Of a stretch of 64,000 nt of DNA, positions 19,800 through 31,454 are shown piece after piece. The notes below the pieces were generated by a model, which saw only the letters and a list, made by a program, of their open reading frames with translations, made no database searches and was not told where the DNA came from. The position numbers and the translations under genes were made by a program. How positions within the stretch are numbered: position 1 is the stretch's first letter; every line of letters starts with the position of its first letter. Origin of the DNA: a plasmid; the NCBI RefSeq assembly GCF_988243305.1, contig NZ_OZ547137.1; one strand, 5' to 3'.

Positions 19800-20150
19800 C
19801 TTTTTTGAACATAAAATAAAGTTAATTTCGGAACACTAAAATTCATAATACAAACAGGGACGCACCGCTAGCAGCGCCCCTAGCGGTATCCTATAAAAAA
19901 ACACACCGCGCCGCTAGCAGCGCCCCTAATATAAAATGATGTTTTTTATAAAAATAGTCAGTACCACCCCTACAAAGCGGTGTCGGCGCGTTGTTGTAGC
20001 CGCGCCGACACCGCTTTTTTAAATATCATAAAGAGAGTAAGAGAAACTAATTTTTCATAACACTCTATTTATAAAGAAAAATCAGCAAAAACTTGTTTTT
20101 GCGTAGTGTGTGGTGCTTTTGGTGGTGAGAACCACCAACCTGTTGAGCCT
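19800..20150. promoter_or_regulatory. oriT: oriT, F-type origin of transfer with nic motif and TraM/TraY/IHF-type repeats
   Basis: GTGTGT/GGTGCTTTTGGTGGTGAGAACCACCAACC at 20106-20140 matches the F nic region as recalled (nic about 20111^20112); two copies of GCTAGCAGCGCCCCTAG (19867, 19912); inverted repeat GGTGTCGGCGCG...CGCGCCGACACC (19977-20015). Confidence 0.75.
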
Positions 20151-20201: not shown

Positions 20202-20712
20202 AATGAAAAAATGGATGTTAGCCATCTGCCTGATGTTTATAAATGAGATCTGCCATGCCACTGATTGCTTTGATCTTGCAGGCCGGGATTACAAAATAGA
20301 TCCTGATTTACTGAGAGCAATATCATGGAAAGAATCCCGTTACCGGGTTAATGCCATCGGTATTAATCCGGTAACGGGATATGGCAGCGGACTGATGCAG
20401 GTAGATTCCCAGCATTTTAACGAACTGGCCCGCTATGGAATTAAGCCGGAACATCTGACAACAGATCCCTGCATGAACATTTATACCGGTGCTTATTATC
20501 TGGCAATAGCCTTTAAAAAATGGGGCGTCTCCTGGGAGGCCGTTGGTGCATACAATGCCGGATTCAGGAAGACCGAACGCCAGAACCAGAGACGTCTTGC
20601 CTACGCATCAGAGGTTTACCGGATTTATACCAGGATAAAAAGCAGTAAAGGTATCCGGATTCCGGTCACGAAGAAATCACTTCCAGAAATTAACAGCGTG
20701 CAGAACAATTAA
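20202..20712 (+). CDS. GeneX/orf169-type lytic transglycosylase
   Basis: 170-aa ORF from [12 protein letters not shown] with signal peptide; first gene after oriT as in F. Confidence 0.8.
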
Positions 20713-20959
20713 TCTTACAGACATTGTCAGATACCGGTTATGCCGCAAAAGCGGCATGAAGGCTACACACAAAAATATCATATGAGTGACAATGCTGACT
20801 GGCCGAAGCCCCGCGAAGCGGGAACCCATCTTATATATACCCGGTAACTGCGCAGCCTCCTGCCAGACCATTTTTCGCGGGCACAATATTTACAGACAAC
20901 CGGAAAGCCGGTTGATGGAATTGAGGTATATCAGACGACACAGCGATGCCGAAGAATGA

Positions 20960-21003
20960 TAATATAAGTAAAGCCCCGAAAAATTTTCGGGGCTTTACTT
21001 ATA
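20960..21003. terminator. Bidirectional intrinsic terminator (long perfect palindrome)
   Basis: AATGATAATATAAGTAAAGCCCCGAAAA / TTTTCGGGGCTTTACTTATATTATCAT between convergent genes. Confidence 0.5.
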
Positions 21004-21006
21004 TTA

Positions 21007-21909
21007 TCATGACTTCCACTTTCTGAACTGTTCGGCAATCACCCATAACGCCTTGTTGATTCTTATATCACCATCAATACCTGTAATGGCTCTTGTCCTG
21101 GTATTTTTCCCGGAGGCACTTCGCCCCGATAATCCACCTTTTATCATATTCTCCTGAACCCGCTGCCAGGTTGTCCAGAGATCGTTCTGTTTATCTTCCC
21201 GACGACGGGGAGTAATTATTTGTTCAGGCGTCACTGGCGTTTTATTTTCATCTTCATACCTGACCATCAGTGCAGCTCTGCCAAATAAATGTTGCTCGTC
21301 ACTGTTAAGATGAATTTCTTTCATCGCCTCCATATTATCAGTGACCTTATCAAAGACACCGAGCACTTCATACGCTCCCTCGATAACCTGCCCGACAATA
21401 TCACCTTTATGTGGAACACGGATTTCGCCAAAATTATTTCCGCACACCAGGCCATTTGTGCAGACAAAACGAAAAATTCCGGGGATCATCTGATAACTGG
21501 ATGAACCATCATGTGAATTAAGCAGGATAATTTCAGGAACTTCCTGCCCGTTAATATGCCCTTCCCTGCGAAGGCGTAACATATGTTTACTGTATTCGCG
21601 GCGTCCCAAATCACGAACCCGACTCTGACAGGCAAAGAATGGCTGGAAACCTTCATCACGTAACTTATTGATGATATTGATTGTTGGAATATACGTATAA
21701 CGTTCACTCCGGGACTCATGTTTATCACCGGAAAATACCGAAGGCACGAACTGCATTAATTCATCATCCGTTAAAGGACGTTCACGACGGATGGAATTAT
21801 ACCGACCAAAACGGGAAGCTAATCGCATAACAGCTACTCCTTTATGAAAGGATAAATTTAATAAAAAATTTTTCCGCTTAATATCATCCCTCCCGATCTC
21901 CATTAACAA
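21007..21909 (-). CDS. Conserved leading-region protein of unknown function (about 300 aa)
   Basis: 300-aa ORF downstream (minus sense) of the first Frpo-like repeat; family not confidently recognised. Confidence 0.5.
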   Translation of the reverse strand: MLMEIGRDDIKRKNFLLNLSFHKGVAVMRLASRFGRYNSIRRERPLTDDELMQFVPSVFSGDKHESRSERYTYIPTINIINKLRDEGFQPFFACQSRVRDLGRREYSKHMLRLRREGHINGQEVPEIILLNSHDGSSSYQMIPGIFRFVCTNGLVCGNNFGEIRVPHKGDIVGQVIEGAYEVLGVFDKVTDNMEAMKEIHLNSDEQHLFGRAALMVRYEDENKTPVTPEQIITPRRREDKQNDLWTTWQRVQENMIKGGLSGRSASGKNTRTRAITGIDGDIRINKALWVIAEQFRKWKS

Positions 21910-22187
21910 GATTGCAACAATCAGGAGGGATATTCATCACATCCGGTCAGCAGATCGCCCGGATATCGAGGCCGGCACGCTTAATCTGACGCAGGAACTG
22001 TTTGAAGTGATCGGCTTCCGCAATGTTGATATGGCGGAACTGCGTATCCACACCCCGGCTGAGCGCGTAGCTATAGCTGAAGGCCATCTTTTCCGGTGTT
22101 TTTTTCCCTCCCGGCAACAAGAATCGTGTACGACGCGGTGTTAACGTGGATATTTCGGGTACTCATCCAGCTTTCTCCTCTCTCTGG

Positions 22188-22720
22188 TTTTCAGCCCCCA
22201 TCATCTGTTGAGTTTCGGGAGCCGCGGTTTTGACGTTTTGCGGGGACCTGCTCTTTGTTCCCTCCGGTATTCACCATCACCTGTTTGAGAACCTTCGCCG
22301 CAAGGGGCATCACTGCCACGGCCTGACGCACCTGTCCTGGGCAGAACGCAAAATTTTTTACCGGGTTTTGGGTAAAAAATTTTGTGGGCTGTTCATTTAC
22401 CCTGGACAGTCAGTGCGGCAGGTTGTGGCTGTATCAGCCCCCGGCGACAGGGGCTTAAACAGGTGAATGGCACCGGACACAACAACGGGCAGGGACCCGC
22501 CGCAACGACGTGAAGCGCGGTTTGCGAAACGGCGTTGCGCCTTACATCCCGGCGGCCTTTTGCCGGGATGCAGGGAGCGCAGGCCACGGCGCGACAGAGG
22601 CGGCGCGACCGGAACGGTCGCTGCAAGCCCGGGGTTTCGCGTCAGGGATGGAAGCCCGCCAGGGGGACGCCCGGAAAAGACACTGCCAGGAGAACAACAA
22701 AACAGACAATAATCAGGGCA
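22188..22720. repeat. Frpo/ssi-like single-strand promoter repeat, copy 1
   Basis: Starts CAGCCCCCATCATCTGTTGAGTTTCGGGAGCCGCGGTTTTGACGTTTTGCGGGGACC; near-identical to copies at 27508 and 30850. Confidence 0.6.
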
Positions 22721-23016
22721 GCAGTAATCAGAGTCAGAACAGGAGGAAAAAGAGAATAATCAAAGAGAAGGTGATGTGATTTCTGACAGGTCATAAACAG
22801 AGAAGGCGGGGGAAAAGAACGGGCGCCGCAGGCGCACGTTCATCCCCGTTCCCGGAGGGAAACGGCCTTCCTGGCAGTCTGGTTGTTCATGCCCGTACAA
22901 TGCCAGCAAGGAGAAAGGGGCCACCGGCGAACCAGCAGCCCCTTTATAAAGGCGCTTCAGTGCAGTCAGACCAGCATCAGCCCTGAAAAGGCGGGCCTGC
23001 GCCCGCCTCCAGGTTG

Positions 23017-23175
23017 CTACTTACCGGATTCGTAAGCCATGAAAGCCGCCACCTCCCTGTGTCCGTCTCTGTAACGAATCTCGCACAGCGATTTTCGTGT
23101 CAGATAAGTGAATATCAACAGTGTGAGACACACGATCAACACACACCAGACAAGGGAACTTCGTGGTAGTTTCAT
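23017..23175 (-). CDS. hok: Hok-family toxin (52 aa) of a hok/sok type I TA system
   Basis: Minus-strand translation gives [52 protein letters not shown]; below the 60-aa track cut-off. Confidence 0.85.
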
Positions 23176-23233
23176 GGCCTTCTTCTCCTTGCGCAAAGCG
23201 CGGTAAGAGGCTATCCTGATGTGGACTAGACAT
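23021..23233 (-). CDS. mok: Mok, overlapping reading frame controlling hok translation
   Basis: 70-aa ORF overlapping hok in another frame and starting upstream. Confidence 0.55.
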
Positions 23234-23250
23234 AGGGATGCCTCGTGGTG
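23176..23250 (+). ncRNA. sok: Predicted Sok antisense RNA region
   Basis: Antisense to the mok start / hok leader; placed by analogy, boundaries approximate. Confidence 0.3.
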
Positions 23251-23454
23251 GTTAATGAAAATTAACTTACTACGGGGCTATCTTCTTTCTGCCACACAAC
23301 ACGGTAACAAACCACCTTCACGTCATGAGGCAGAAAGCCTCAAGCGCCGGGCACATCATAGCCCATATACCTGCACGCTGACCACACTCACTTTTCCTGA
23401 AAATAACCCGCTCATTCAGGCTGTTTACGGGTAATCTGTGTGATTGTTGCCGCA

Positions 23455-24174
23455 TCACGCCGCCTCCCGGAGTTTGTTCGGCACCATCCACCGCTCCATC
23501 TCACGGACAGCGTGACCGGCCTCTCTTGCTGCAAGACTGGCTTCCGCAATAACCTGCCAGAACGGCATATCCTGCCACTGCCAGCGTTCCATTCCGGCCA
23601 GTGACGGGAAACGCTCGCCCCACAGCCAGAACAGGGTTTCCAGGTCATGCTCTGCCACCCGGTCACTCCAGCGTGCATGCCAGCTTCCGACTGTTTCCGG
23701 CGAATGGAATGCCAGTTCGATTTCAGCCTGAGCGACCAGCGCCTGGTACGCACGGGCTTTCTGCTCTGCCTCCCGTGCCTGCTGGCGGCTGTACTTCTGC
23801 ATGACCAGCGCGGATTTATGGCGACTGCGCTCCCTGACGCGGAACCGCACCGACGGAAACAACCGCTCTGCTGCATCACCGGGAAGGGGAAGGAGGCAGA
23901 CCTCGCCCTGTGTTTCAATCAGCACATCGACGGCATACAGCCACTGAAGACGGTTGCCGTGCAGTTCTTCTGCGGTCAGGGACGGCATGAAAAATCGCAG
24001 GTCAGACAGCGATATCCTGCGGCTTCCGTTCAGACAGCGGAAAAACGCCCCCGCATACGGATATTCCGCCAGCGTGTTACCCTGATGGCGGCGTTTTTCT
24101 GTCTCCGCCACCGCCTGCCATGCGGCCTGTTGCTCTGTGCAGAGGGGAACCAGTGCCTGTGAACGTACGCTCAT
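23455..24174 (-). CDS. psiA: PsiA
   Basis: 239-aa ORF immediately downstream of psiB, overlapping its stop. Confidence 0.85.
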
Positions 24175-24608
24175 GCCTGACCTCCTTCCGCCATCAGGAT
24201 ATGGATGATGTCATTAACGCTGTACCCCTGCGCATCCAGTGACGCCGCCAGTGCCAGTGAATGGCTGACGGCTTCCGGTGCAAACCGCCGCTGCACCTGA
24301 ACCACCGCAAACGGCTCACCACCGGCATTCACCAGAACCAGCACCCAGACCTGAGAGACATCGCCCGGTGAACATAACGCCAGGTGAAAACGTTCGTGGG
24401 CAGGCGTGAAACGGACCTGGACGGGGAAAAATCCGCCAAACTCGCTGCCGTACTCGCCGTTCATCGTCCAGTTGTCCGGCGCATCCAGTTCCCGCATCAC
24501 GGCGTGTGTCAGCTCACGACGTTCATCACTTCCGGCAGCCCGGATATCTTCATATTCCTGTGCGCTCATGGTCTGTAATACATTCAGGGTCAGTTCAGTT
24601 TTCATCAC
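24171..24608 (-). CDS. psiB: PsiB, plasmid SOS inhibition protein
   Basis: 145-aa ORF ([26 protein letters not shown]...); classic leading-region position. Confidence 0.9.
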
Positions 24609-24659
24609 AGTATCTCCCTTGCTGCCGCCCCGTCTCCGGCGGGGCGGTGTGGTTGTTCA

Positions 24660-26624
24660 TCAGGCGGCATCAGCCAGGTTATCGGTGCGTTCAGTGGCAT
24701 CTGTCTGTGGATGTGGTGCACACATCCAGCCTGGAACCCAGCGGTTGTCTTTCATATTGTGCTCTGCATGTTCAGCCGCATCACCTTTCTTCATCTTCTC
24801 CGCGTCCCGTGCGGCACCGGACAGCCCTGCCTCATTCAGGGCTGCGATAATCTGCGGCTTTTTCAGGTGTCCGAAGAAGTTTGCTTTTGTCGGCTGCCAC
24901 CAGTCACGCATGTGAAAGCCGATGGCGCTTTCCAGCGAGTCAAGCGGACTGCGTGACGTGTGACCACACTCGCGGGTCTGGACACCGTTAAGACTGCACG
25001 CGGTACAGAAGCTGAGCAGGGATAACAGCACCTCCTGGCTGAGTGACAGGAACGTCGTCATATCCCGTTCCCATCCTTCCGGCAGCAGGGCAGCAAAACG
25101 AGAGTGTTCTGCCATCAGCGCCATGAATGCGGCACCTTCCTTCCCCGACGGTGCATCGCTGGTCAGCGCATAATGCTCACATTCCAGGCGAATTCTGGCG
25201 GGACTACTATGCGCTTTGCTGCCAAACACATTCAGGCAGAGCGTCCATGCCAGCAGTGTCAGGGATTTGTCCGGTTGCTGCATCAGTGCCGCCTGGACTG
25301 CCAGCGTGCGTTCGGAAGACATTTTCGTCAGCAGTGGCAGACTGATTTCCTCCACTGACGCTTTTTCCTGCACCTGTTCCGTGCGGTCAGCGTCGTCAGC
25401 CGCATCATCCTCACTGCGTAACTGCACACCACGCTGGACACATACGTTTCCATAACGCCAGGACACCACCACTCCACCTCCGGCACGCATCTCCGGCGTC
25501 CACGCTCTGACCTTCGCCATGCAGCGCATCAGCTTCATTTCTGCTTCCAGCAGGTCAGATTCCTCACACTGGTTTTCCATCGCGTCGTAACGCGTCATCA
25601 GTTCGTTCAGGCGTTCTTCTTCCGCCTCCGTCAGCACCGCTTCCGGCTCCGGCAGACAGCGGTATGTTCCGGCATCCTCACGGCACTCACCGACTGGCTC
25701 CATGCGCCCGGCGCACCATTCCCAGCCTTCTGCTTCCCGAAGGTGTTCAGCAACAGCCTGGAGTTTTTCCAGCAGGGCGGCATCGAGCGCCACGCAGTCC
25801 ACATAGCCACCCTCGTCGTCGCTGAACAGGTCAGTGCGCAGTTCATCTGGCGAGAAGGCATCAGCCCCCACAAAGCGGAATTTACTGTTCCCCGCCACCG
25901 CCACTTCACTTTCGGTCACCAGACGACGAATGGTCTGCGCTTCCGGTTTACCGCCCCATCCCGACTGGCAGGCGGCTTCAAACACCTGCACCTGACGCGC
26001 GGTGTCGTTCTCCAGCGCCAGCGCCTGACAGTGTTCGGTGGTGATGCGGTCTTCTGCCAGCGCATCGAGGATGACAGGCGCAAGGTCAGCCAGTTTCAGC
26101 ATTCGCTGGACATGGCGGGGTGAATAGCCCAGCAAGTCACCGATTTGTGCAGGTGTTTTGCCTTCCTGCGCCATTGCGCGGAATCCGGCAATCTGTTCGG
26201 CAGGGTGCATATCCCGACGATGACCGTTTTCAGTCATTGATGCGGCAGTCGCCAGTTCCTGCGGGATGACCTTTACGCGGACAGGTCAGTCAGCCGGAAT
26301 GATGCCACGCTCTGCCAGCATGTTGAGTGCTGCCAGTCGGCGACCACCTGCGGCGACACCGTAACGGTCACCAGGCAGGGTATGCACGACCAGATTCTGC
26401 AACAGGCCAACGTCCTTAATGGACTCCGCCAGTTCGCTGACGGACTCTGCGGAATACGGCACCGTGCGCACATTCAGCGGTGATTTAATCAGTGAAGCCA
26501 GCGGCACACTCACTTCCTCCGTCTGCGCCAGCAGGGCAGACAGGACTGTTTCCTGCGTTTTTACAGATTTAAGGCTTGCTTTGCGGGTGGTTTCTGGTTC
26601 ACACTTCGTTACAGGCATAATCAT
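24660..26624 (-). pseudogene. ParB-like nuclease-domain protein interrupted by an in-frame TGA
   Basis: 112-aa (26286-26624) and 525-aa (24660-26237) ORFs are in the same frame, separated by one TGA at 26286-26288; N-terminus has a ParB-type motif (VAAGGRRLAAL). Confidence 0.6.
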
Positions 26625-26676
26625 CCCCTTATAATTGCTTATGTCCTGCCGGACGTTCGCGCGTCCGGCACCTCTC

Positions 26677-26937
26677 TTACTTAAGAATCCCGAAATCCCT
26701 GATGTACCGGTTCATCCAGTACCCGGCACAGTCCTCAAAATTCCAGGAGCGCCAGATCAACGTGCCATCCTGACGGGCAACCAGGCGAAAATGCGTTCCC
26801 TGATCATCCTCGATAAAGACATTCCGGTACTGTGCGGCAACGGCTTCAGCCTGTTCGCGGGTAAAGGAGCCGTCAGGCAGCCCCTGAAATATTCTGAAAT
26901 ATTCGCTCATCCTCATCTCTCCGGTGATGCCCCGCAC
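26677..26937 (-). CDS. Small conserved leading-region protein (86 aa)
   Basis: ORF between ssb and the ParB-like gene. Confidence 0.4.
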
Positions 26938-26965
26938 TGGACGGGGCGGTTGTCACTGTCTTAGT

Positions 26966-27487
26966 TCAGAACGGAATGTCGTCATCGAAGTCATACGCGG
27001 GTTCAGACGGCTGCTGAGGCTCCGGCTGCGCGGCCTTACGTCCACGGCCTTTCGTTTTCGCGCCACCTTTTTTCGTCGCGTCAGCACTCTGTGGCTGCCC
27101 ATTCTGCTGAGGCTTCGGTTGCGCCTGAGCGTTCTGCTGTGGTGCACTCCCCAGCATCTGCATGGTGCCCGTGGTCTTAACAAGAATTTCAGTGACGTAA
27201 CGGGTGATACCGTTATCTTCCCAACTACGGGTACGGAGTTGCCCCTCGATGTAGACCTGCTCGCCCTTGTGCAGATATTCACCGGCCACTTCCGCGAGCT
27301 TGCCGAACAGCACCACGCGATGCCATTCTGTCTGCTCCCGAATCTCCCCCGTCTGTTTGTCACGCCAGCTTTCTGACGTAGCCACCTGCAGGTTTGCCAC
27401 TGCGCCCCCGTTGGGGATGTAACGGACTTCCGGATCATTGCCCAGACGACCGACAAGAATGACCTTGTTAATGCCACGAACTGCCAT
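26966..27487 (-). CDS. ssb: Plasmid single-stranded DNA-binding protein
   Basis: [35 protein letters not shown]-fold N-terminus, Gln/Pro-rich linker, acidic DDDIPF tail. Confidence 0.92.
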
Positions 27488-27507
27488 GATGTATCTCCTT
27501 CTGTTGA

Positions 27508-27962
27508 TGTTTTCAGCCCCCATCATCTGTTGAGTTTCGGGAGCCGCGGTTTTGACGTTTTGCGGGGACCTGCCTTTTGTTCCCTCCGGTATTCACCATC
27601 ACCTGTTTGAGAACCTTCGCCGCAAGGGGCATCACTGCCACGGCCTGACGCACCTGTCCTGGGCAGAACGCAAAATTTTTTACCGGGTTTTGGGTAAAAA
27701 ATTTTGTGGGCTGTTCATTTACCCTGGACAGTCAGTGCGGCAGGTTGTGGCTGTATCAGCCCCCGGCGACAGGGGCTTAAACAGGTGAATGGAACCGGAC
27801 ACAACAACGGGCAGGGACCCGCCGCAACGACGTGAAGCGCGGTTTGCGAAACGGCGTTGCGCCTTACATCCCGGCGTCTTTTTGCCGGGATGCCGGGAGC
27901 GCAGGCCACGGCGCGACAGAGGCGGCGCGACCGGAACGGTCGCTGCAAGCCCGGGGTTTTCA
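27508..27962. repeat. Frpo/ssi-like single-strand promoter repeat, copy 2 (upstream of ssb)
   Basis: About 450 bp matching copies 1 and 3 up to the GGGGCTTAAACAGGTGAATGG...CGCTGCAAGCC block. Confidence 0.6.
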
Positions 27963-28140
27963 CGCATCGGACCGTAGCGACAGCCCGAAACCGCGCCAGC
28001 GGGTTCGGCGGAGACTGGCAGGTGCGCCAGCAGCTGCCTGTCGGAGTCGGGCCTGACGACCGGATGCCGCCAGGCAGCCGGGAGCCGAAGGTGCGCCCGG
28101 CAGACAGGACAACACTGCAGTAGTCAGAATCAGAGCGGCA

Positions 28141-28186
28141 GGAAAAAGAAGAGCAGTAGCAGTAGCAGTAGCAGTAGCAGTAGCAG
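28141..28186. repeat. Hexanucleotide microsatellite (AGCAGT)n
   Basis: About six tandem units read directly from the sequence. Confidence 0.8.
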
Positions 28187-28365
28187 GAACAACAACATCA
28201 TCAGTAACAGACAAATGACAGGTCTGAAAAGACAGAAGCCCCCATCAGAACGTCCGCGTAATGAAAGGGGCGGCGCGTGAGCGCGGCCCCTTTCAGCGCC
28301 ACCGGCGCGCGGTCTTTTCCCTGCGCGGGCAGACGGGCATTTATCCTCCCGCCAGCCCTGTGTCA

Positions 28366-28929
28366 TCAGGCACGCAGACGAATAATCATCGTCGGGACAT
28401 CGGTATAAGCAAACGTGCCGCGCGGCAGCTCCTCGCGGACGTCAGAAAACGGTAACAGCTTCTCCTGCTGGCGCGGCCCGTTCAGACAGACGGCAACCAG
28501 CACGCCACCCGGACGCAACAGGGAAAAAGCCCGCAGGATATGCCGGATATCCTGCCCGTGACTGAACGGCGGATTCATGATAACCCGGCTGTAATACTGC
28601 ACCGGCTGCCATTCCATGAAGTCGCCACACTGAACCCTGACACCGTTAAAATTTTCCCGCAGATACCGGACCAGCCCGCTGTTAATCTCCACCGCATCAC
28701 ACATGGCCTCCGGCGCGGTATCCCGAATCGCCCGCAGTATGGCCCCGGTGCCGGCAGAGGGTTCCAGAATGTGATCACGGTTGCTGATTTCCGCCAGCGT
28801 CACCAGGCGATCACAGACCGGGGCAGGAGTCACAAAAAGCTGAGATTCAGCCCGGATTTCAGCAACCGGCGCGGCGTTATCCAGCCTTGCACGCATCAGC
28901 CGGATACGTTCTCTTAACTGACTGTGCAT
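28366..28929 (-). CDS. Orphan amino-methyltransferase (N6-adenine or N4-cytosine)
   Basis: 187-aa ORF with motif I (EPSAGTGAI) and motif IV (NPPF); no cognate endonuclease adjacent. Confidence 0.7.
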   Translation of the reverse strand: MHSQLRERIRLMRARLDNAAPVAEIRAESQLFVTPAPVCDRLVTLAEISNRDHILEPSAGTGAILRAIRDTAPEAMCDAVEINSGLVRYLRENFNGVRVQCGDFMEWQPVQYYSRVIMNPPFSHGQDIRHILRAFSLLRPGGVLVAVCLNGPRQQEKLLPFSDVREELPRGTFAYTDVPTMIIRLRA

Positions 28930-28975
28930 GTCATTATCTCCGTCATCCCCCGGGGATTTCCCGGGGGGATATACC

Positions 28976-30337
28976 TTATTTCTGTGGGATTTCCGTGATT
29001 TTCATGTCGGTAATATACACATTCACCAGGCGGAAATTATTGTCCATTGTGCGGCGGTAGCGGTATGCCCCGTGGTCTTCTGTCTCTGCCACACTGCGCA
29101 CGGCCTTACAGTCCCGGGGCAGGGCGGCCCACTGCGCCTTTGTCATTTCCCGGAAACCTTCCCCCGGATAGTTGACTACCGGCGGACGCTTCGCGGCCTG
29201 ACTGGCGACGGCAGCCTCTTCTGCCGATGGTGCTTTGTAGTCCGTGATGCGATCGGGCGTCACTTTCATCGTGCCGCTGTACCCGAGAAAACTGTAATTC
29301 GGCGTTGTGACTGAACTCACCGCCCCGTTGCTTTTGTTCACGCGGATGATGGTCAGCCACTCGCCCCGGCTGAAAACCTGTCCGCCCGGCTCAAAATCCT
29401 GTGTCCGGGTAACCACGCCGCCGCTTTCGTCCAGCATGGCACGCTCATAGATCAGGCGGTTCTGATAGTGGTTAACCCAGCGTTGCTGATGCTGAATCTG
29501 CCGTTCATGACAGCGGATCGCAATTTCGCGGGCCTGCTCCGTGGTGATGATGTCATCATCCAGGGCCGACCATAACGATCGACTTCCTTCATACTGGCTT
29601 TTTTCTGCCGGGCGCGGATACGTATCCAGCGGGAAACAGGCGCTGATATGGTCATGACTGCTGATGAGTTTTGCCATATTCAGATCCAGCGATTCAGCCC
29701 GCCACATCGTCAGATATTTCTGCGACTGCGCGATGGTCTTTTCAGCCTTGCGCAAATCAGCTTCGATTTTTTTGATACGACGCCAGCGAACGTCCGGGCG
29801 TTCTTTATACTTCGCGTGAAGCAGTGCCGACCGCGCCCGCTCCTCCCAGTATTCCGCACGTTCAAAGAGCATCACGGCACGTTTCATGCCGTTTTCAATA
29901 CGCTGCGCATCACGACGGGCGCGGCGTTCGCTGTGATGCCCCACAAGAATGGGCTGACCGGGCGGGATCATCGCGGCCAGTCTTTCCACTTCATCAAGTG
30001 CCTGTGCGGATTCACTGGCCCGCTTTCCGCTGTATCCGGTAAACCGCTCCGCCCGTGCTTCCTGACGTTCAGCGAGCGTGCTGTCTTCATCCTCAATCTC
30101 TCCGGCAAGTGAGAGGAGCACGTCTTCCCGGCCCGGTGTCCAGGCTGGCGCGACAAACAGCGCCTGTTTGGGTGCCCAGCGAAAACCGGCATCATGCACT
30201 TTTTTATACGTCTCCGGGTCAAGACGTGACGCGGCATACAGGCGCAGTTTGTTGTCATCCGGTGAGTAGGTCGCGCGGTACATCTGCACAGGGCTGGCGG
30301 CTTCCGGGGCGGTCATGGTGATTGCTGCTAATGTCAT
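28976..30337 (-). CDS. Conserved leading-region protein of unknown function (453 aa)
   Basis: Large ORF with charged coiled-coil middle region; family not confidently assigned. Confidence 0.5.
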   Translation of the reverse strand: MTLAAITMTAPEAASPVQMYRATYSPDDNKLRLYAASRLDPETYKKVHDAGFRWAPKQALFVAPAWTPGREDVLLSLAGEIEDEDSTLAERQEARAERFTGYSGKRASESAQALDEVERLAAMIPPGQPILVGHHSERRARRDAQRIENGMKRAVMLFERAEYWEERARSALLHAKYKERPDVRWRRIKKIEADLRKAEKTIAQSQKYLTMWRAESLDLNMAKLISSHDHISACFPLDTYPRPAEKSQYEGSRSLWSALDDDIITTEQAREIAIRCHERQIQHQQRWVNHYQNRLIYERAMLDESGGVVTRTQDFEPGGQVFSRGEWLTIIRVNKSNGAVSSVTTPNYSFLGYSGTMKVTPDRITDYKAPSAEEAAVASQAAKRPPVVNYPGEGFREMTKAQWAALPRDCKAVRSVAETEDHGAYRYRRTMDNNFRLVNVYITDMKITEIPQK

Positions 30338-30388
30338 AAAATGTTCTCCTTCCGTCTGTTGCCGCCCCTCGCGGGGCGGCTCACCTCA

Positions 30389-30619
30389 TCAGTTAAAAGC
30401 GCGTTTCAGTTCGAGTGTGCGGAGCACCTGCCCGAAGGCCGTGTTTTTCATGGCGGGGATGTGTACACCACGCCCCCGGTGAAAACTCCGGGCTATGTGT
30501 CGCCCGAAGGCTTTCAGCACGGGGTCAATTTCCGGCGCGGGGATGTCTTCGCGTCTGAAACGGGGATGACGGCGGGGCTTTACAGCCGCTGCGGAAGGTG
30601 AAACAATGCTTACAGTCAT
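30389..30619 (-). CDS. Small basic hypothetical protein (76 aa)
   Basis: ORF immediately downstream (minus sense) of Frpo-like copy 3. Confidence 0.3.
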   Translation of the reverse strand: MTVSIVSPSAAAVKPRRHPRFRREDIPAPEIDPVLKAFGRHIARSFHRGRGVHIPAMKNTAFGQVLRTLELKRAFN

Positions 30620-30849
30620 AAATGGATTCCTTATGACAGTTTGGTAACAGTGCCTTAAAGACTGGTTGCACAGTCTCTTCGGCGTGGATTAAGCAGGTCC
30701 CTGACCTGCTTTTTTCATATCTGCGTCTGACGTTCTCCGGTGTATTCCTCCTTCTGTTCCTGCGTTCTCATTACCTGCCAGCAGGATGCTGACAGAACAC
30801 ATAAATGCGTATTGCCGGAGCCTGAAATAAATCCTGATTTTTAAAGAAC

Positions 30850-31380
30850 ATCACCCGTTGAGTTTCGGGAGCCGCGGTTTTGACGTTTCGCGGGAACCTG
30901 CTGCTGTATTCCCTGTGGTATGAACTTCACCCGTTTGAGAACCTTCGCCGCAAGGGGCATCACTGCCACGGCCTGACGCACCTGTCCTGGGCAGAACGCA
31001 AAATTTTTTACCGGTTCTTGGGTAAAAAATTTTGTGGGCTGTTCATTTACCCTGGACAGTCAGTGCGGCAGGTTGTGGCTGTCTATGCCCCCGGCGACAG
31101 GGACTCATACGGGTGTGTGGCACCCGGCAGGCAATGAGCAGGGACCCGCTGCAACGACGTGAAGCGCGGTTTGCGAAACGGCGTTGCGCCTTACATCCCG
31201 GCGTCTTTTTGCCGGGATGCCAGGAGCGCAGGCCACGGCGCGACAGAGGCGACGCGACCGGAACGATCGCTGCAAGCCAGGGTTTCGCGTCAGGGATGGA
31301 AGCCCGCCAGGGCGGAGACAGCTTCGCTGGCTCCGTTCACGACAGCCCGCCCCGCCAGGGGGACGCCCGGGAAAGCCATA
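30850..31380. repeat. Frpo/ssi-like single-strand promoter repeat, copy 3
   Basis: Same core as copies 1 and 2; ends in a purine-rich GAAGAG tract (31385-31430). Confidence 0.6.
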
Positions 31381-31454
31381 AACAGGAGAGGAACGGAAAG
31401 AAGAAGAGGAAGAAGAGGAAGAGTAAGCGCACCGTGAAGGACGTGGAGTAAAAA

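What the first reader, a model, noticed from the sequence alone, without database searches (positions are those of the whole stretch)
20202..31400. Leading-region establishment set: hok/sok, psiB-psiA, ParB-like, ssb, orphan methyltransferase and large unknown proteins
The first roughly 11 kb to enter a recipient encodes an SOS inhibitor, an ssDNA-binding protein, an orphan amino-methyltransferase with no partner endonuclease (a plausible anti-restriction function), a ParB-like nuclease-domain protein and several conserved unknowns. Leading regions are known to concentrate anti-defence functions, so the unassigned 300-aa, 453-aa, 86-aa and 76-aa ORFs are candidates.
Basis: partly seen in the sequence, partly recalled or inferred. 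Interest (0 to 1): 0.5.

Follow-up and report, generated by a model that had tools for sequence, protein, structure and literature searches.

The report
IncF plasmid leading region, partly decayed
This is the well-known first-to-enter segment of an F-like conjugative plasmid, switched on by three hairpin promoters that work on single-stranded DNA; it is ordinary, except that two of its genes are broken here and its "unknown" 453-aa protein looks like the detached front half of the neighbouring methyltransferase.

Summary
The genes are there. Window 20.1-31.4 kb is the canonical IncF (F/R100-type) leading region, found in over 5000 plasmid records. It lies next to an R100-type oriT nick site (T20111|G20112). 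The + strand is the transferred strand, so every minus-strand gene can be transcribed from it.

Three 450-510 nt copies of the Frpo/ssi class-1 single-stranded-DNA promoter (94-95% identical to F Frpo2) each head one operon:
- ygeB-ygeA
- ssb-yfjA-herB-psiB-psiA, running on towards hok/sok
- ydaB-ydbA-methyltransferase

All the "unassigned" ORFs belong to families already listed as the most abundant leading-region families (Samuel 2024). The ParB-like gene is the orthologue of HerB/YfjB.

This copy is damaged in three places:
- herB carries W111->TGA.
- ygeB has a 68-nt frameshifting deletion.
- An IS66-family element cuts off the distal part; no klcA/ardB is in the window.

The one new point concerns the methyltransferase. 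The 453-aa DUF3560 protein (YdbA) and the 187-aa NPPF methyltransferase are a split gene. In 99 of the 150 best cluster representatives they form one 620-800 aa polypeptide. The enzyme is TaqI/EcoKI-like, not an M.EcoGIX relative.

Verdict: already known, low interest, with one testable lead.

The parts
20090..20135 (+). oriT nick region. The R100-type TraI site TTTGCGTAGTGTGT|GGTGCTTT has its nick between T20111 and G20112, so the + strand is the transferred (T) strand and enters 5'->3' towards higher coordinates.
   Evidence: Sequence read. The consensus and nick position are from established knowledge of F/R100 oriT (memory). Orientation agrees with traM/traJ/traY on the - strand and with FinP and the traJ 5'UTR (Rfam).
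20203..20712 (+). ygfA / gene X: SLT-domain lytic transglycosylase with a signal peptide. It is the only gene whose template is not the T strand.
   Evidence: Pfam SLT 5e-22. 98.2% identical to the F homologue. In F, YgfA is made only after ss-to-ds conversion (PMC9849209).
21007..21828 (-). ygeA (YubP, 'gene 32'): DUF932 protein of 273 aa. The mechanical ORF of 300 aa starts at a TTG at 21909.
21947..22166 (-). ygeB remnant. The 95-aa gene carries a 68-nt internal deletion that shifts the frame (ATG at 22166).
   Evidence: BLASTN against intact ygeB of L004, L002 and F. The deletion junction occurs contiguously in only one other record, NZ_CP139842.
22187..22698 (+). Frpo-a (counterpart of F Frpo1/ssp1a): class-1 ssDNA promoter hairpin heading ygeB-ygeA.
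   Evidence: Direct-repeat family. 91.6% identical to F Frpo1 and 95% to F Frpo2. The + strand folds at -152 kcal/mol, z = -9.1.
23017..23349 (-). hok/mok/sok (flm-type) type I toxin-antitoxin: hok 23017-23175 (52 aa), mok ORF 23021-23233, sok / hok-leader region 23173-23349.
   Evidence: Pfam HOK_GEF 1.7e-21. Rfam RF01794 at 88.9 bits against a gathering score of 59. ORFs.
23455..24174 (-). psiA, 239 aa.
   Evidence: Pfam PsiA 2.7e-38. NCBIfam NF010258 at 417 bits. 98.3% identical to F PsiA.
24171..24605 (-). psiB, 144 aa, SOS inhibitor. It overlaps the psiA start by 4 nt.
   Evidence: Pfam PsiB 1.6e-63. 97.2% identical to F PsiB.
24660..26618 (-). herB (yfjB, 'ParB2') pseudogene: a 652-codon frame with W111->TGA at 26286-26288, between CTP-binding Box II and Box III.
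   Evidence: In-frame stop. ParB_N lies on the N-terminal piece and HTH_ParB on the C-terminal piece. 90.6% identical to F HerB. The same allele is present in L001 and L004, and the exact 61-mer occurs in 6 plasmid records.
26677..26910 (-). yfjA (YubL/YkfF family): DUF905 protein of 77 aa.
   Evidence: Pfam DUF905 7.5e-35. PDB 2HJJ (E. coli YkfF) at 5.6e-22. 78% identical to F YfjA.
26966..27487 (-). Plasmid ssb, 173 aa, with the acidic C-terminal tail DFDDDIPF.
   Evidence: Pfam SSB 6.6e-37. Sequence.
27509..27958 (+). Frpo-b (counterpart of F Frpo2/ssp1b): class-1 ssDNA promoter hairpin heading ssb-yfjA-herB-psiB-psiA.
   Evidence: Repeat family. 94.9% identical to F Frpo2. Folds at -146.5 kcal/mol, z = -11.4.
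27960..28366 (.). Spacer holding a CTGCTA hexamer array (28152-28186, 5.8 copies). Databases annotate overlapping low-complexity 'hypothetical' ORFs here, which are probably not genes.
   Evidence: TRF. Sequence. No Pfam hits.
28366..28929 (-). 187-aa gamma-class (TaqI/EcoKI-like) amino-methyltransferase: catalytic domain only, with TP cap T34-P35, motif I E56-G62 and NPPF 119-122. It has its own GGAG Shine-Dalgarno sequence.
   Evidence: M.TaqI 3.5e-6 with aligned motifs. Pfam MTS and others. PHROG DNA-methyltransferase families down to 2e-32. PADLOC mad2 and type II methyltransferases. 40-46% identical to the C-terminal domain of fused homologues. Shine-Dalgarno sequence.
28976..30337 (-). 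ydbA: DUF3560 protein of 453 aa. It is the detached N-terminal module of the methyltransferase.
   Evidence: Pfam DUF3560 5.4e-37. 99 of 150 cluster representatives are DUF3560-methyltransferase fusions. AF2 pLDDT 94.3. No PDB fold relative.
30389..30619 (-). ydaB: 76-aa protein, possibly an HU-like DNA-binding fold. First gene of the third operon.
   Evidence: Weak PF14908 HU-CCDC81 hit (6.8e-4, below the cut-off). Some relatives are annotated that way, and one is named YdaB.
30837..31394 (+). Frpo-c: third class-1 ssDNA promoter hairpin, heading ydaB-ydbA-methyltransferase. The F plasmid has no such copy or module at this position.
   Evidence: Repeat family. 94% identical to F Frpo2. Folds at -156 kcal/mol, z = -9.8. 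Compensatory pair changes relative to copies a and b. F layout.
31455..34052 (-). IS66-family element (tnpA, tnpB and a broken tnpC) that ends the leading region.
   Evidence: ORFs. Annotation of L001. Homology with the intact relative L002 stops at 31422, and klcA/ardB, DUF1380, the M.EcoGIX-like methylase and sopB are absent from the whole window.

Best explanation
Window 20.1-31.4 kb is the leading region of an F-like (MOBF, MPF_F) conjugative plasmid.

**How it is expressed.** During mating the + strand is nicked at about 20111/20112 and enters the recipient 5' end first. All establishment genes lie on the minus strand, so the incoming single strand is their template. Three near-identical ~0.5-kb elements fold in the single strand into ~380-nt imperfect hairpins. 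These mimic double-stranded promoters (Frpo/ssi, class 1). Host RNA polymerase fires from them towards oriT until the complementary strand is made, which is known as zygotic induction. This gives three transient operons.

**The three operons.**
1. Frpo-a drives ygeB and ygeA (DUF932).
2. Frpo-b drives ssb, yfjA (DUF905), herB, psiB and psiA. Transcription runs on towards hok/sok, which also guards the DNA between the repeats against recombinational loss.
3. Frpo-c drives ydaB, ydbA (DUF3560) and a 187-aa methyltransferase.

**The third operon.** The last two products are the two halves of one enzyme. It is a TaqI/EcoKI-like N6-adenine methyltransferase catalytic domain that has no recognition domain of its own. 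In most relatives its large arginine-rich N-terminal module, which is YdbA here, is part of the same polypeptide. I infer that the pair methylates the entering plasmid DNA to blunt restriction. That would be functionally analogous to M.EcoGIX, but the two enzymes are not homologous.

**State of this copy.** It is partly decayed:
- herB has a nonsense codon.
- ygeB is frameshifted.
- An IS66-family element has removed the distal klcA/ardB part.

**Shown versus inferred.** Shown here: gene identities, orientation, repeat homology, predicted hairpins, the lesions, and the fusion/fission relationship. Inferred: promoter activity of these particular copies, a YdbA-methyltransferase complex, the DNA substrate, and the anti-restriction role.
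For: - **Family identities:**
- **Abundance:** more than 5000 plasmid records match; 529 cover at least 80% of the interval; H1 is 99.9% identical.
- **Identity to F proteins:** 78-99%.
- **nic and orientation:**
- **Three repeats:**. They are 94-95% identical to F Frpo2.
- **Frpo activity in F:** Frpo1 and Frpo2 are needed for early expression in vivo (PMC9849209). Transcription start sites of class-1 promoters were mapped in pESBL (PMC12672017).
- **Hairpins:** z = -9.1, -11.4 and -9.8. The consensus fold has 160 pairs, 6 of them with compensatory changes.
- **Operon starts:** each repeat ends 21-22 nt (copies a and b) or 218 nt (copy c) upstream of the first ATG of its operon.
- **Split methyltransferase:** 99 of the 150 best 50%-identity cluster representatives of YdbA carry the methyltransferase domain at the C-terminus. 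This includes all 78 representatives of 620-760 aa. NPPF is present in 94 of the 99. BLASTP of the 187-aa protein against their C-termini gives E = 1e-34 to 4e-39. Gene order is colinear with the fusion, and the break falls in the linker.
- **Methyltransferase class:** TaqI alignment with TP, motif I and NPPF. This is the family described in polyvalent proteins (PMC5512222).
- **Lesions:**
Against: - No strict sigma-70 -35/-10 pair is found by a double-strand consensus scan of the repeat. I could not place the promoter hexamers.
- Promoter activity is assumed from homology to F, and Frpo-c has never been tested in this context.
- The substrate of the methyltransferase is unknown. Weak hits to rRNA and protein methyltransferases also exist.
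- YdbA has no recognisable DNA-binding fold in the PDB.
- Samuel et al.'s table and Dimitriu et al. list the methylase without any test.
- With herB and ygeB broken and klcA gone, parts of the 'set' may be dispensable. That weakens any claim that each gene matters.
Confidence: 0.85

Rival explanations
1. The 300-, 453-, 86- and 76-aa ORFs are separate, still undiscovered anti-defence proteins (anti-restriction, anti-CRISPR or similar), each acting alone on a recipient defence system.
For: - All four families are among the most abundant families enriched in leading regions and encoded on the T strand (Samuel 2024 Supplementary Table 1).
- None has a known biochemical function.
- An anti-CRISPR gene placed behind an Frpo in the F leading region works well.
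Against: - The 453-aa protein is fused to the methyltransferase in 99 of 150 cluster representatives, so it is not a stand-alone inhibitor.
- Deleting F ygeA cuts transfer between isogenic K-12 strains about 25-fold, where there is no foreign defence to overcome.
- None of the four hits any known anti-defence or defence profile.
- Fold searches gave no DNA-mimic or inhibitor-like match.
Confidence: 0.2
2. The YdbA-methyltransferase pair is not an anti-restriction device. It modifies RNA, protein or host DNA for regulation, for example translation or gene-expression reprogramming of the new host in the way HerB acts, or timing of plasmid replication.
For: - The Pfam and NCBIfam hits include MTS, RrnaAD, Erm, KsgA and PrmC profiles at E = 1e-5 to 1e-9.
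- NPPF also occurs in m2G rRNA methyltransferases (from memory).
- HerB shows that leading-region proteins can act on host physiology.
- A pKAZ3 dam knockout gave no restriction phenotype in another study.
Against: - The best specific matches are DNA adenine methyltransferases: M.TaqI with the TP...NPPF signature, PHROG 'DNA methyltransferase' families at E = 1e-25 to 1e-31, and PADLOC type II methyltransferases and mad2.
- This domain family in mobile-element polyvalent proteins is classed as EcoKI/TaqI-like DNA adenine methyltransferase.
Confidence: 0.2
3. The leading region of this plasmid is a decaying remnant with no remaining role. The plasmid survives by vertical inheritance, and the lesions mark relaxed selection on the whole block.
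For: - There are three independent lesions in 11 kb: the herB nonsense codon, the ygeB frameshift and the IS66 truncation.
- F deletions of Frpo2, ssb, psiB or herB do not lower short-term transfer frequency.
Against: - The remaining ORFs are intact, and the five looked up are identical to sequences seen on 955 to 1000 or more contigs.
- All three hairpins are conserved.
- The nearest relative is typed conjugative, with MOBF and MPF_F.
- tra genes fill the window upstream.
- The herB allele has persisted in at least 6 plasmids from different hosts and sources, including human isolates and a Canada goose.
Confidence: 0.1

Closest known systems
Leading region of plasmid F (ygfA-ygeA-ygeB-Frpo1-flm-psiA-psiB-yfjB/herB-yfjA-ssb-Frpo2)
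   Same: Same gene order and orientation from oriT to ssb. Protein identities are 78-99%. Two of the three hairpins correspond to Frpo1 and Frpo2.
   Different: - F continues beyond Frpo2 with klcA/ardB (yfgB) behind ssp2 and a beta-class DPPY methylase (M.EcoGIX homologue) behind ssp3.
- This plasmid type instead has the ydaB-ydbA-methyltransferase module behind a third class-1 Frpo.
- herB and ygeB are broken here.
IncI1 leading regions (ColIb-P9, R64, pESBL) with ssi1-3
   Same: They have three class-1 ssDNA promoters, with zygotic induction of ssb, psiB and a methyltransferase. The names YdaB and YdbA appear among the source names attached to these protein families.
   Different: - The relaxase and oriT type differ.
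- ardA is present.
- Their characterised methyltransferase, M.EcoGIX, belongs to a different class.
- I did not examine an IncI1 sequence directly.
M.EcoGIX / M.BceJIII single-strand-specific orphan methyltransferases
   Same: An orphan adenine methyltransferase in the leading region, oriented for expression from the entering strand. The proposed job is the same: protecting incoming DNA from restriction.
   Different: - There is no sequence relationship. BLASTP against the F homologue gives no significant hit (best E = 0.21 over 10 residues).
- M.EcoGIX is beta-class with DPPY. This enzyme is gamma-class with NPPF.
- This enzyme is split from a 453-aa partner.
Methyltransferase domain of polyvalent proteins (DarB-type methylase-helicase dyad; Iyer et al. 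2017)
   Same: An EcoKI/TaqI-like adenine methyltransferase with an N-terminal TP cap and NPP(Y/F). It is carried by phages and conjugative elements for early counter-restriction. The best PHROG hits are internal domains of 1259-3925-aa proteins, and one YdbA relative carries LPD29.
   Different: - There is no SF2 helicase, and no LPD36 was identified.
- The N-terminal partner is DUF3560 instead.
- The protein is expressed in the recipient rather than (as far as known) delivered.
HerB (YfjB) ParB-like host expression reprogrammer
   Same: 90.6% identity over 652 codons, at the same position between yfjA and psiB.
   Different: W111->TGA separates Box II (R94) from Box III (E130), the HTH and domains D3-D4. 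Mutants of either box, and truncations, fail to form foci in F. This allele is therefore predicted to be null.

Membership tests
IncF (F/R100-type) leading region | Adjoins oriT on the side transferred first, with the nick on the strand that is template for the leading genes. | tested here: met
   R100-type nic sequence on the + strand at 20097-20119 (consensus from memory). traM, traJ, traY and FinP lie on the other side. All leading genes except SLT are on the - strand.
IncF (F/R100-type) leading region | Conserved synteny ssb - (yfjA, parB-like) - psiB - psiA - hok/sok - ygeB/ygeA - SLT. | tested here: met
   More than 5000 matching plasmid records.
Class-1 ssDNA promoters (Frpo/ssi) | Sequence homology to experimentally defined Frpo1 and Frpo2 of F. 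| tested here: met
   The three copies are 94-95% identical to F Frpo2 and 86-92% to Frpo1 over 450-538 nt.
Class-1 ssDNA promoters (Frpo/ssi) | A long stable stem-loop in the transferred strand, placed upstream of a co-oriented operon. | tested here: met
   Free energies of -146 to -156 kcal/mol, z = -9 to -11. Conserved fold with 6 compensatory pairs. Each copy lies directly upstream of ygeB, ssb or ydaB.
Class-1 ssDNA promoters (Frpo/ssi) | Reconstituted -35 and -10 hexamers in the stem, and transcription from ssDNA. | tested here: inconclusive
   The consensus scan found no pair with at least 9 of 12 matches, and I could not place the hexamers by eye. Activity cannot be tested in silico.
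Anti-defence island in the sense of Samuel et al. 2024 | Known anti-defence genes clustered on the T strand of the leading region. | tested here: met
   psiB, psiA, ssb and an orphan methyltransferase are all T-strand encoded. However, no ardA, klcA or ardB is in the window. Anti-CRISPR profiles were not searched.
Gamma-class (TaqI/EcoKI-like) N6-adenine DNA methyltransferase | Motif I (SAM binding) followed by motif IV NPP(Y/F), with an N-terminal helix capped by TP. | tested here: met
   T34-P35, E56-PSAGTG-62 and N119-PPF-122, aligned to M.TaqI residues 22-122. The family is described.
Gamma-class (TaqI/EcoKI-like) N6-adenine DNA methyltransferase | A target-recognition domain in the same polypeptide. 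| tested here: not met
   The protein is 187 aa, catalytic domain only; M.TaqI is 421 aa. A candidate module, YdbA, is encoded by the preceding gene and is fused to the catalytic domain in relatives.
Gamma-class (TaqI/EcoKI-like) N6-adenine DNA methyltransferase | m6A formation on DNA. | not testable with these tools
   Needs methylome sequencing or an in-vitro assay.
M.EcoGIX / M.BceJIII family | Sequence homology; beta-class motif order with DPPY. | tested here: not met
   BLASTP against the F homologue (which contains DPPY) gives only a 10-residue match at E = 0.21. The motif here is NPPF in gamma order. M.EcoGIX is described as beta-class with DPPY.
HerB/YfjB ParB-like family | Full-length four-domain protein (D1-D4) with CTP-binding boxes and an HTH. 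| tested here: not met
   Orthologous by sequence (90.6% identity), but interrupted by TGA at codon 111. ParB_N and HTH_ParB fall on separate ORFs.
hok/sok type I toxin-antitoxin | A Hok toxin ORF, an overlapping mok reading frame and the sok antisense region. | tested here: met
   PF01848 1.7e-21. mok ORF 23021-23233. RF01794 at 88.9 bits.
Polyvalent-protein methylase-helicase dyad (DarB-like) | LPD36 - adenine methyltransferase - SF2 helicase in one polypeptide. | tested here: not met
   Only the methyltransferase domain is shared. No helicase or LPD36 hit was found in the 187-aa protein or in YdbA.

The most novel reading that the evidence does not exclude
YdbA (DUF3560) and the 187-aa NPPF protein form a two-subunit N6-adenine methyltransferase, arisen by fission of a ~670-aa enzyme that is widespread on mobile elements. 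YdbA has a fold with no relative in the PDB and would supply DNA binding, possibly to single-stranded DNA. The pair, with the small YdaB protein, is expressed from a dedicated ssDNA promoter to methylate the entering strand. This would be a second, evolutionarily independent solution to the problem M.EcoGIX solves. It is carried by at least 5000 of the 72,556 plasmid records searched, and no experimental test of it turned up in the literature searched.
Probability: 0.4. Interest if true: 0.55.

Novelty: already known. Interest (0 to 1): 0.3.

Why it matters
As a locus it adds nothing. The IncF leading region, its ssDNA promoters, PsiB, SSB, hok/sok and now HerB have all been described, and the anti-defence-island idea was published in 2024.

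Two by-products are useful.

First, linking DUF3560/YdbA to the adjacent methyltransferase turns one of the commonest uncharacterised plasmid proteins into a testable subunit of a DNA-modifying enzyme. That enzyme probably helps resistance plasmids cross restriction barriers.

Second, this plasmid lineage is a natural herB-null. In this plasmid and its nearest relative (pNORD58_1) ygeB is frameshifted as well. For F, the authors reported that ygeB could not be deleted on its own. The lineage therefore offers a ready-made background in which to ask what these genes contribute.

Tried and rejected
- **Fold searches of the AF2 models.**
- **Profile libraries.** PDB sequence searches for YdbA, YgeA and YdaB found nothing useful. 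PADLOC, NCBIfam and PHROGs gave no function for YgeA, YfjA, YdbA or YdaB.
- **Promoter hexamers.** The double-strand sigma-70 scan of the repeat found none, and manual placement of -35/-10 in the stem was not convincing.
- **Genomic context of fused YdbA-methyltransferase homologues.** One sits on an integrase/resolvase/RadC element. The others are short metagenomic contigs without annotation.
- **A YdaB-like partner in the fused loci.** The small ORF upstream of the fused gene in L006 is unrelated to YdaB.
- **M.EcoGIX membership.** Considered and rejected.
- **Sequencing error at the herB stop.** Considered and rejected, because six independent assemblies share it.
- **Literature.** A search for DUF932, DUF3560 and DUF905 found only incidental mentions.

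Full report
**What is in the interval.**

In order from oriT they are:
- an SLT transglycosylase (20203-20712, + strand)
- a DUF932 protein (21007-21828)
- hok with an overlapping mok ORF and an Rfam sok match (23017-23349)
- psiA (23455-24174)
- psiB (24171-24605)
- a ParB-like frame (24660-26618)
- a DUF905 protein (26677-26910)
- ssb (26966-27487)
- a 187-aa class-I methyltransferase (28366-28929)
- a 453-aa DUF3560 protein (28976-30337)
- a 76-aa ORF (30389-30619)

To the left lie traM, traJ, traY and traA, together with FinP and the traJ 5'UTR.

The sequence TTTGCGTAGTGTGT|GGTGCTTT sits on the + strand at 20097-20119. From memory, this is the R100-type TraI recognition and nick site. The + strand is therefore the transferred strand, and its 5' end (G20112) enters first. 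The interval really is the first ~11 kb to enter a recipient.

Megablast finds the block in more than 5000 plasmid records. Of these, 529 cover at least 80% of it, and pNORD58_1 (NZ_CP139842) is 99.9% identical. It is one of the most common pieces of DNA in Enterobacterales plasmids.

**Correspondence with plasmid F.**

The annotated F leading region has the same order from oriT to ssb. Protein identities are:

| Protein | Identity to F |
|---|---|
| YgeA (DUF932) | 99.3% |
| PsiA | 98.3% |
| SLT | 98.2% |
| PsiB | 97.2% |
| YfjB/HerB (ParB-like) | 90.6% |
| SSB | 85% |
| YfjA (DUF905) | 78% |

Recent work gives functions or phenotypes for several of these.
[quoted passage not shown] YgfA (SLT), on the opposite strand, appears only after conversion.
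- Deleting ygeA lowers transfer between isogenic strains to 3.9%, against 92.6% for wild type. The authors could not delete ygeB alone (PMC9849209).
- YfjB has been renamed HerB. It is a CTP-binding ParB-like clamp that binds the recipient chromosome and reprograms transcription. It lowers the acquisition cost of the plasmid without changing short-term transfer frequency (PMC13370423).

The repeat finder reports three direct copies of a 450-510 nt element at 22187-22698, 27509-27958 and 30837-31394 (alignment). They are 94-95% identical to F Frpo2 and 86-92% identical to F Frpo1.

Folded as single-stranded DNA, the + (transferred) strand of each copy forms the same ~380-nt imperfect hairpin with an A/T-rich apex. 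Free energies are -146 to -156 kcal/mol, and z-scores against shuffles are -9.1, -11.4 and -9.8.

An alignment of eight copies was folded together: three from the window, two from F and three from an intact relative. It keeps 160 pairs, and 6 of them are maintained through changes on both sides. The sample is small and the copies are related, so this is supporting evidence only.

Copies a and b end 21-22 nt upstream of the first start codon of an operon (ygeB and ssb). Copy c ends 218 nt upstream of ydaB.

[quoted passage not shown] Class-1 promoters have mapped transcription start sites in pESBL. Their transcripts can also prime complementary-strand synthesis.

I could not place the -35 and -10 hexamers, and a strict double-strand consensus scan finds none. 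Promoter activity of these copies therefore rests on homology.

F has two class-1 copies. This plasmid type has three, as reported for IncI1 (ssi1-3).

**The third operon and the split methyltransferase.**

F lacks the ydaB-ydbA-methyltransferase module. Beyond Frpo2 it carries klcA/ardB and a DPPY methylase related to M.EcoGIX.

The window's 187-aa methyltransferase is unrelated to that enzyme; the best BLASTP E-value is 0.21 over 10 residues. It aligns instead with M.TaqI residues 22-122 and has three signatures:
- an N-terminal TP cap (T34-P35)
- motif I (E56-G62)
- NPPF (119-122)

This is the signature of EcoKI/TaqI-like gamma-class adenine methyltransferases described in the polyvalent proteins of phages and conjugative elements (PMC5512222). 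In line with that, its best PHROG matches are internal domains of 1259-3925-aa proteins and 'DNA methyltransferase' families. In PADLOC it hits mad2 and type II methyltransferases.

It consists of the catalytic domain only and has no recognition domain.

An exhaustive HMMER search with the neighbouring 453-aa DUF3560 protein found 3900 homologues.
- Among the 150 best 50%-identity cluster representatives, 99 also contain the methyltransferase domain at the C-terminus.
- That includes all 78 representatives of 620-760 aa.
- NPPF is present in 94 of the 99 (Pfam check).
- The 187-aa protein is 40-46% identical to those C-terminal domains, with E = 1e-34 to 4e-39.

Gene order is colinear with the fusion. 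The break falls in the linker, and the methyltransferase has its own GGAG ribosome-binding site after a short palindrome.

The 453-aa 'unknown' is therefore the detached N-terminal module of the methyltransferase.

Its AlphaFold2 model is confident (pLDDT 94.3, pTM 0.82). It has three parts:
- a small alpha/beta domain (residues 20-83)
- long helical hairpins (88-304) carrying a conserved GHHSE motif and many invariant arginines
- a beta-rich C-terminal domain (320-445)

Samuel et al.'s supplementary table lists this family (rank 28, 'YdbA') as 'Uncharacterized; DUF3560; Methyltransferase domain protein'. The link was therefore glimpsed there but not interpreted.

YdbA is encoded by at least 5000 of the 72,556 plasmid records.

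The 76-aa first gene (YdaB, rank 1 in that table) has only a sub-threshold HU-like hit. An unrelated small ORF precedes the fused gene on one integrative element.

**Damage in this copy.**

1. *herB.* Codon 111 is TGA instead of TGG (26286-26288). The allele is shared by pNORD58_1 and by a plasmid from a Canada goose. The exact 61-mer occurs in six plasmid records, out of at least 1255 that carry the region at full coverage, so it is a real lineage marker and not a sequencing error. It separates Box II (R94) from Box III (E130), the HTH and domains D3-D4. In F, mutants of either box and truncations lose focus formation. I therefore predict a null allele.
2. *ygeB.* The gene has a 68-nt internal deletion that shifts the frame. 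The junction is found contiguously only in pNORD58_1. ygeA downstream is intact.
3. *IS66 truncation.* Homology with an intact relative stops at 31422, and an IS66-family element begins at 31455. No klcA/ardB, DUF1380, M.EcoGIX-like methylase or sopB homologue exists anywhere in the 64-kb window.

The five proteins looked up (YdbA, the methyltransferase, YdaB, YgeA and YfjA) are identical to sequences seen on 955 to 1000 or more contigs.

**How it most likely works.**

Shown here:
- the identity and orientation of the genes
- the three Frpo homologues and their predicted hairpins
- the fusion/fission relationship
- the lesions

Established for F and IncI1 and transferred by homology:
- the hairpins recruit host RNA polymerase on the entering single strand
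- they give a burst of expression that stops on conversion to duplex
- SSB and PsiB suppress the SOS response
- hok/sok stabilises the plasmid and the DNA between the repeats

Inferred:
- YdbA and the methyltransferase act as one enzyme on the incoming plasmid DNA
- that enzyme protects the DNA from restriction, in parallel with but independently of M.EcoGIX

**Rivals.**

- The unknown ORFs could be separate anti-defence inhibitors (weighted 0.2). Against this stand the fusion data and the isogenic-mating phenotype of ygeA.
- The methyltransferase could act on RNA, protein or host DNA for regulation (0.2). It has weak rRNA and protein methyltransferase hits, but its DNA methyltransferase matches are much stronger.
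- The block could be a functionless remnant (0.1). Against this, the other genes and the hairpins are conserved, and the plasmid type is conjugative.

**Verdict.**

The locus is already known.

The only lead beyond the literature I could find is the split YdbA-methyltransferase enzyme behind a third ssDNA promoter. It is directly testable by methylome sequencing and by conjugation into restriction-proficient recipients.

Noticed in passing
window 26286-26288 (within 24660-26618, - strand): herB/yfjB carries W111->TGA. The same allele is in NZ_CP139842, NZ_CP093070, NZ_OP242283, NZ_CP136994, NZ_CP025574 and CP051693. This makes the lineage a natural herB-null among F-like plasmids, with hosts that include humans and a Canada goose.
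   Followed up: yes
window 21947-22166 (- strand): ygeB has a 68-nt frameshifting deletion between short direct repeats, while ygeA downstream is intact. For F, the authors reported they could never delete ygeB alone, so this natural loss is worth a look as a possible toxin/antidote-like relationship.
   Followed up: partly
window 31455-34052 (- strand): An IS66-family element (tnpA 33375-34052, tnpB 33031-33378) has its tnpC split into 86-aa and 325-aa ORFs, so it is probably defective. It truncates the leading region about 60 nt beyond the third hairpin.
   Followed up: partly
window 28152-28186 and 27960-28366: A CTGCTA hexamer array (5.8 copies) lies in the spacer between the methyltransferase gene and Frpo-b. 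Public annotations place two overlapping low-complexity 'hypothetical proteins' here, which look spurious. Similar purine/pyrimidine-rich stretches flank the other two hairpins (for example the AAG repeats at 31398-31422).
   Followed up: no
alignment A4 (window copies against L003 F Frpo2): The hairpin copies are mosaics. F Frpo2 combines the 5' arm of the window a/b type with the 3' arm of the window c type in the mid-stem (columns ~66-97 and 270-300), which creates mismatches there. Window copy c has both arms of the c type, so the changes are compensated. The mismatched zone may be the functionally important open region of the promoter.
   Followed up: partly
window 28930-28975 (- strand): A perfect GC-rich palindrome (CCCCCGGGAAATCCCCGGGGG) sits in the 46-nt gap between ydbA and the methyltransferase gene, just before the latter's Shine-Dalgarno sequence. 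It could couple or attenuate expression of the two halves.
   Followed up: no
window 22191-22331, 27513-27653, 30841-30981 (- strand) and overlapping + strand ORFs: Each hairpin contains the same set of 40-90-aa mechanical ORFs on both strands, for example MRQAVAVMPLAAKVLK... . These are by-products of the repeat. Some are annotated as hypothetical proteins in public records.
   Followed up: no
YgeA model, residues 104-142 (window about 21403-21519): The DUF932 family has an invariant cluster (N104, S105, H106, C123, N125, R137, H140, G142) in and next to a loop that AlphaFold models with low confidence. It looks more like an active or binding site than a structural feature.
   Followed up: no
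window 41000-46500 and 52000-61000: Several low-GC blocks (30-35% GC), bounded by IS-like repeated ORFs (for example 39930-40796 and 47160-48026, both 288 aa), lie beyond the leading region. They are presumably acquired cargo and were not examined.
   Followed up: no
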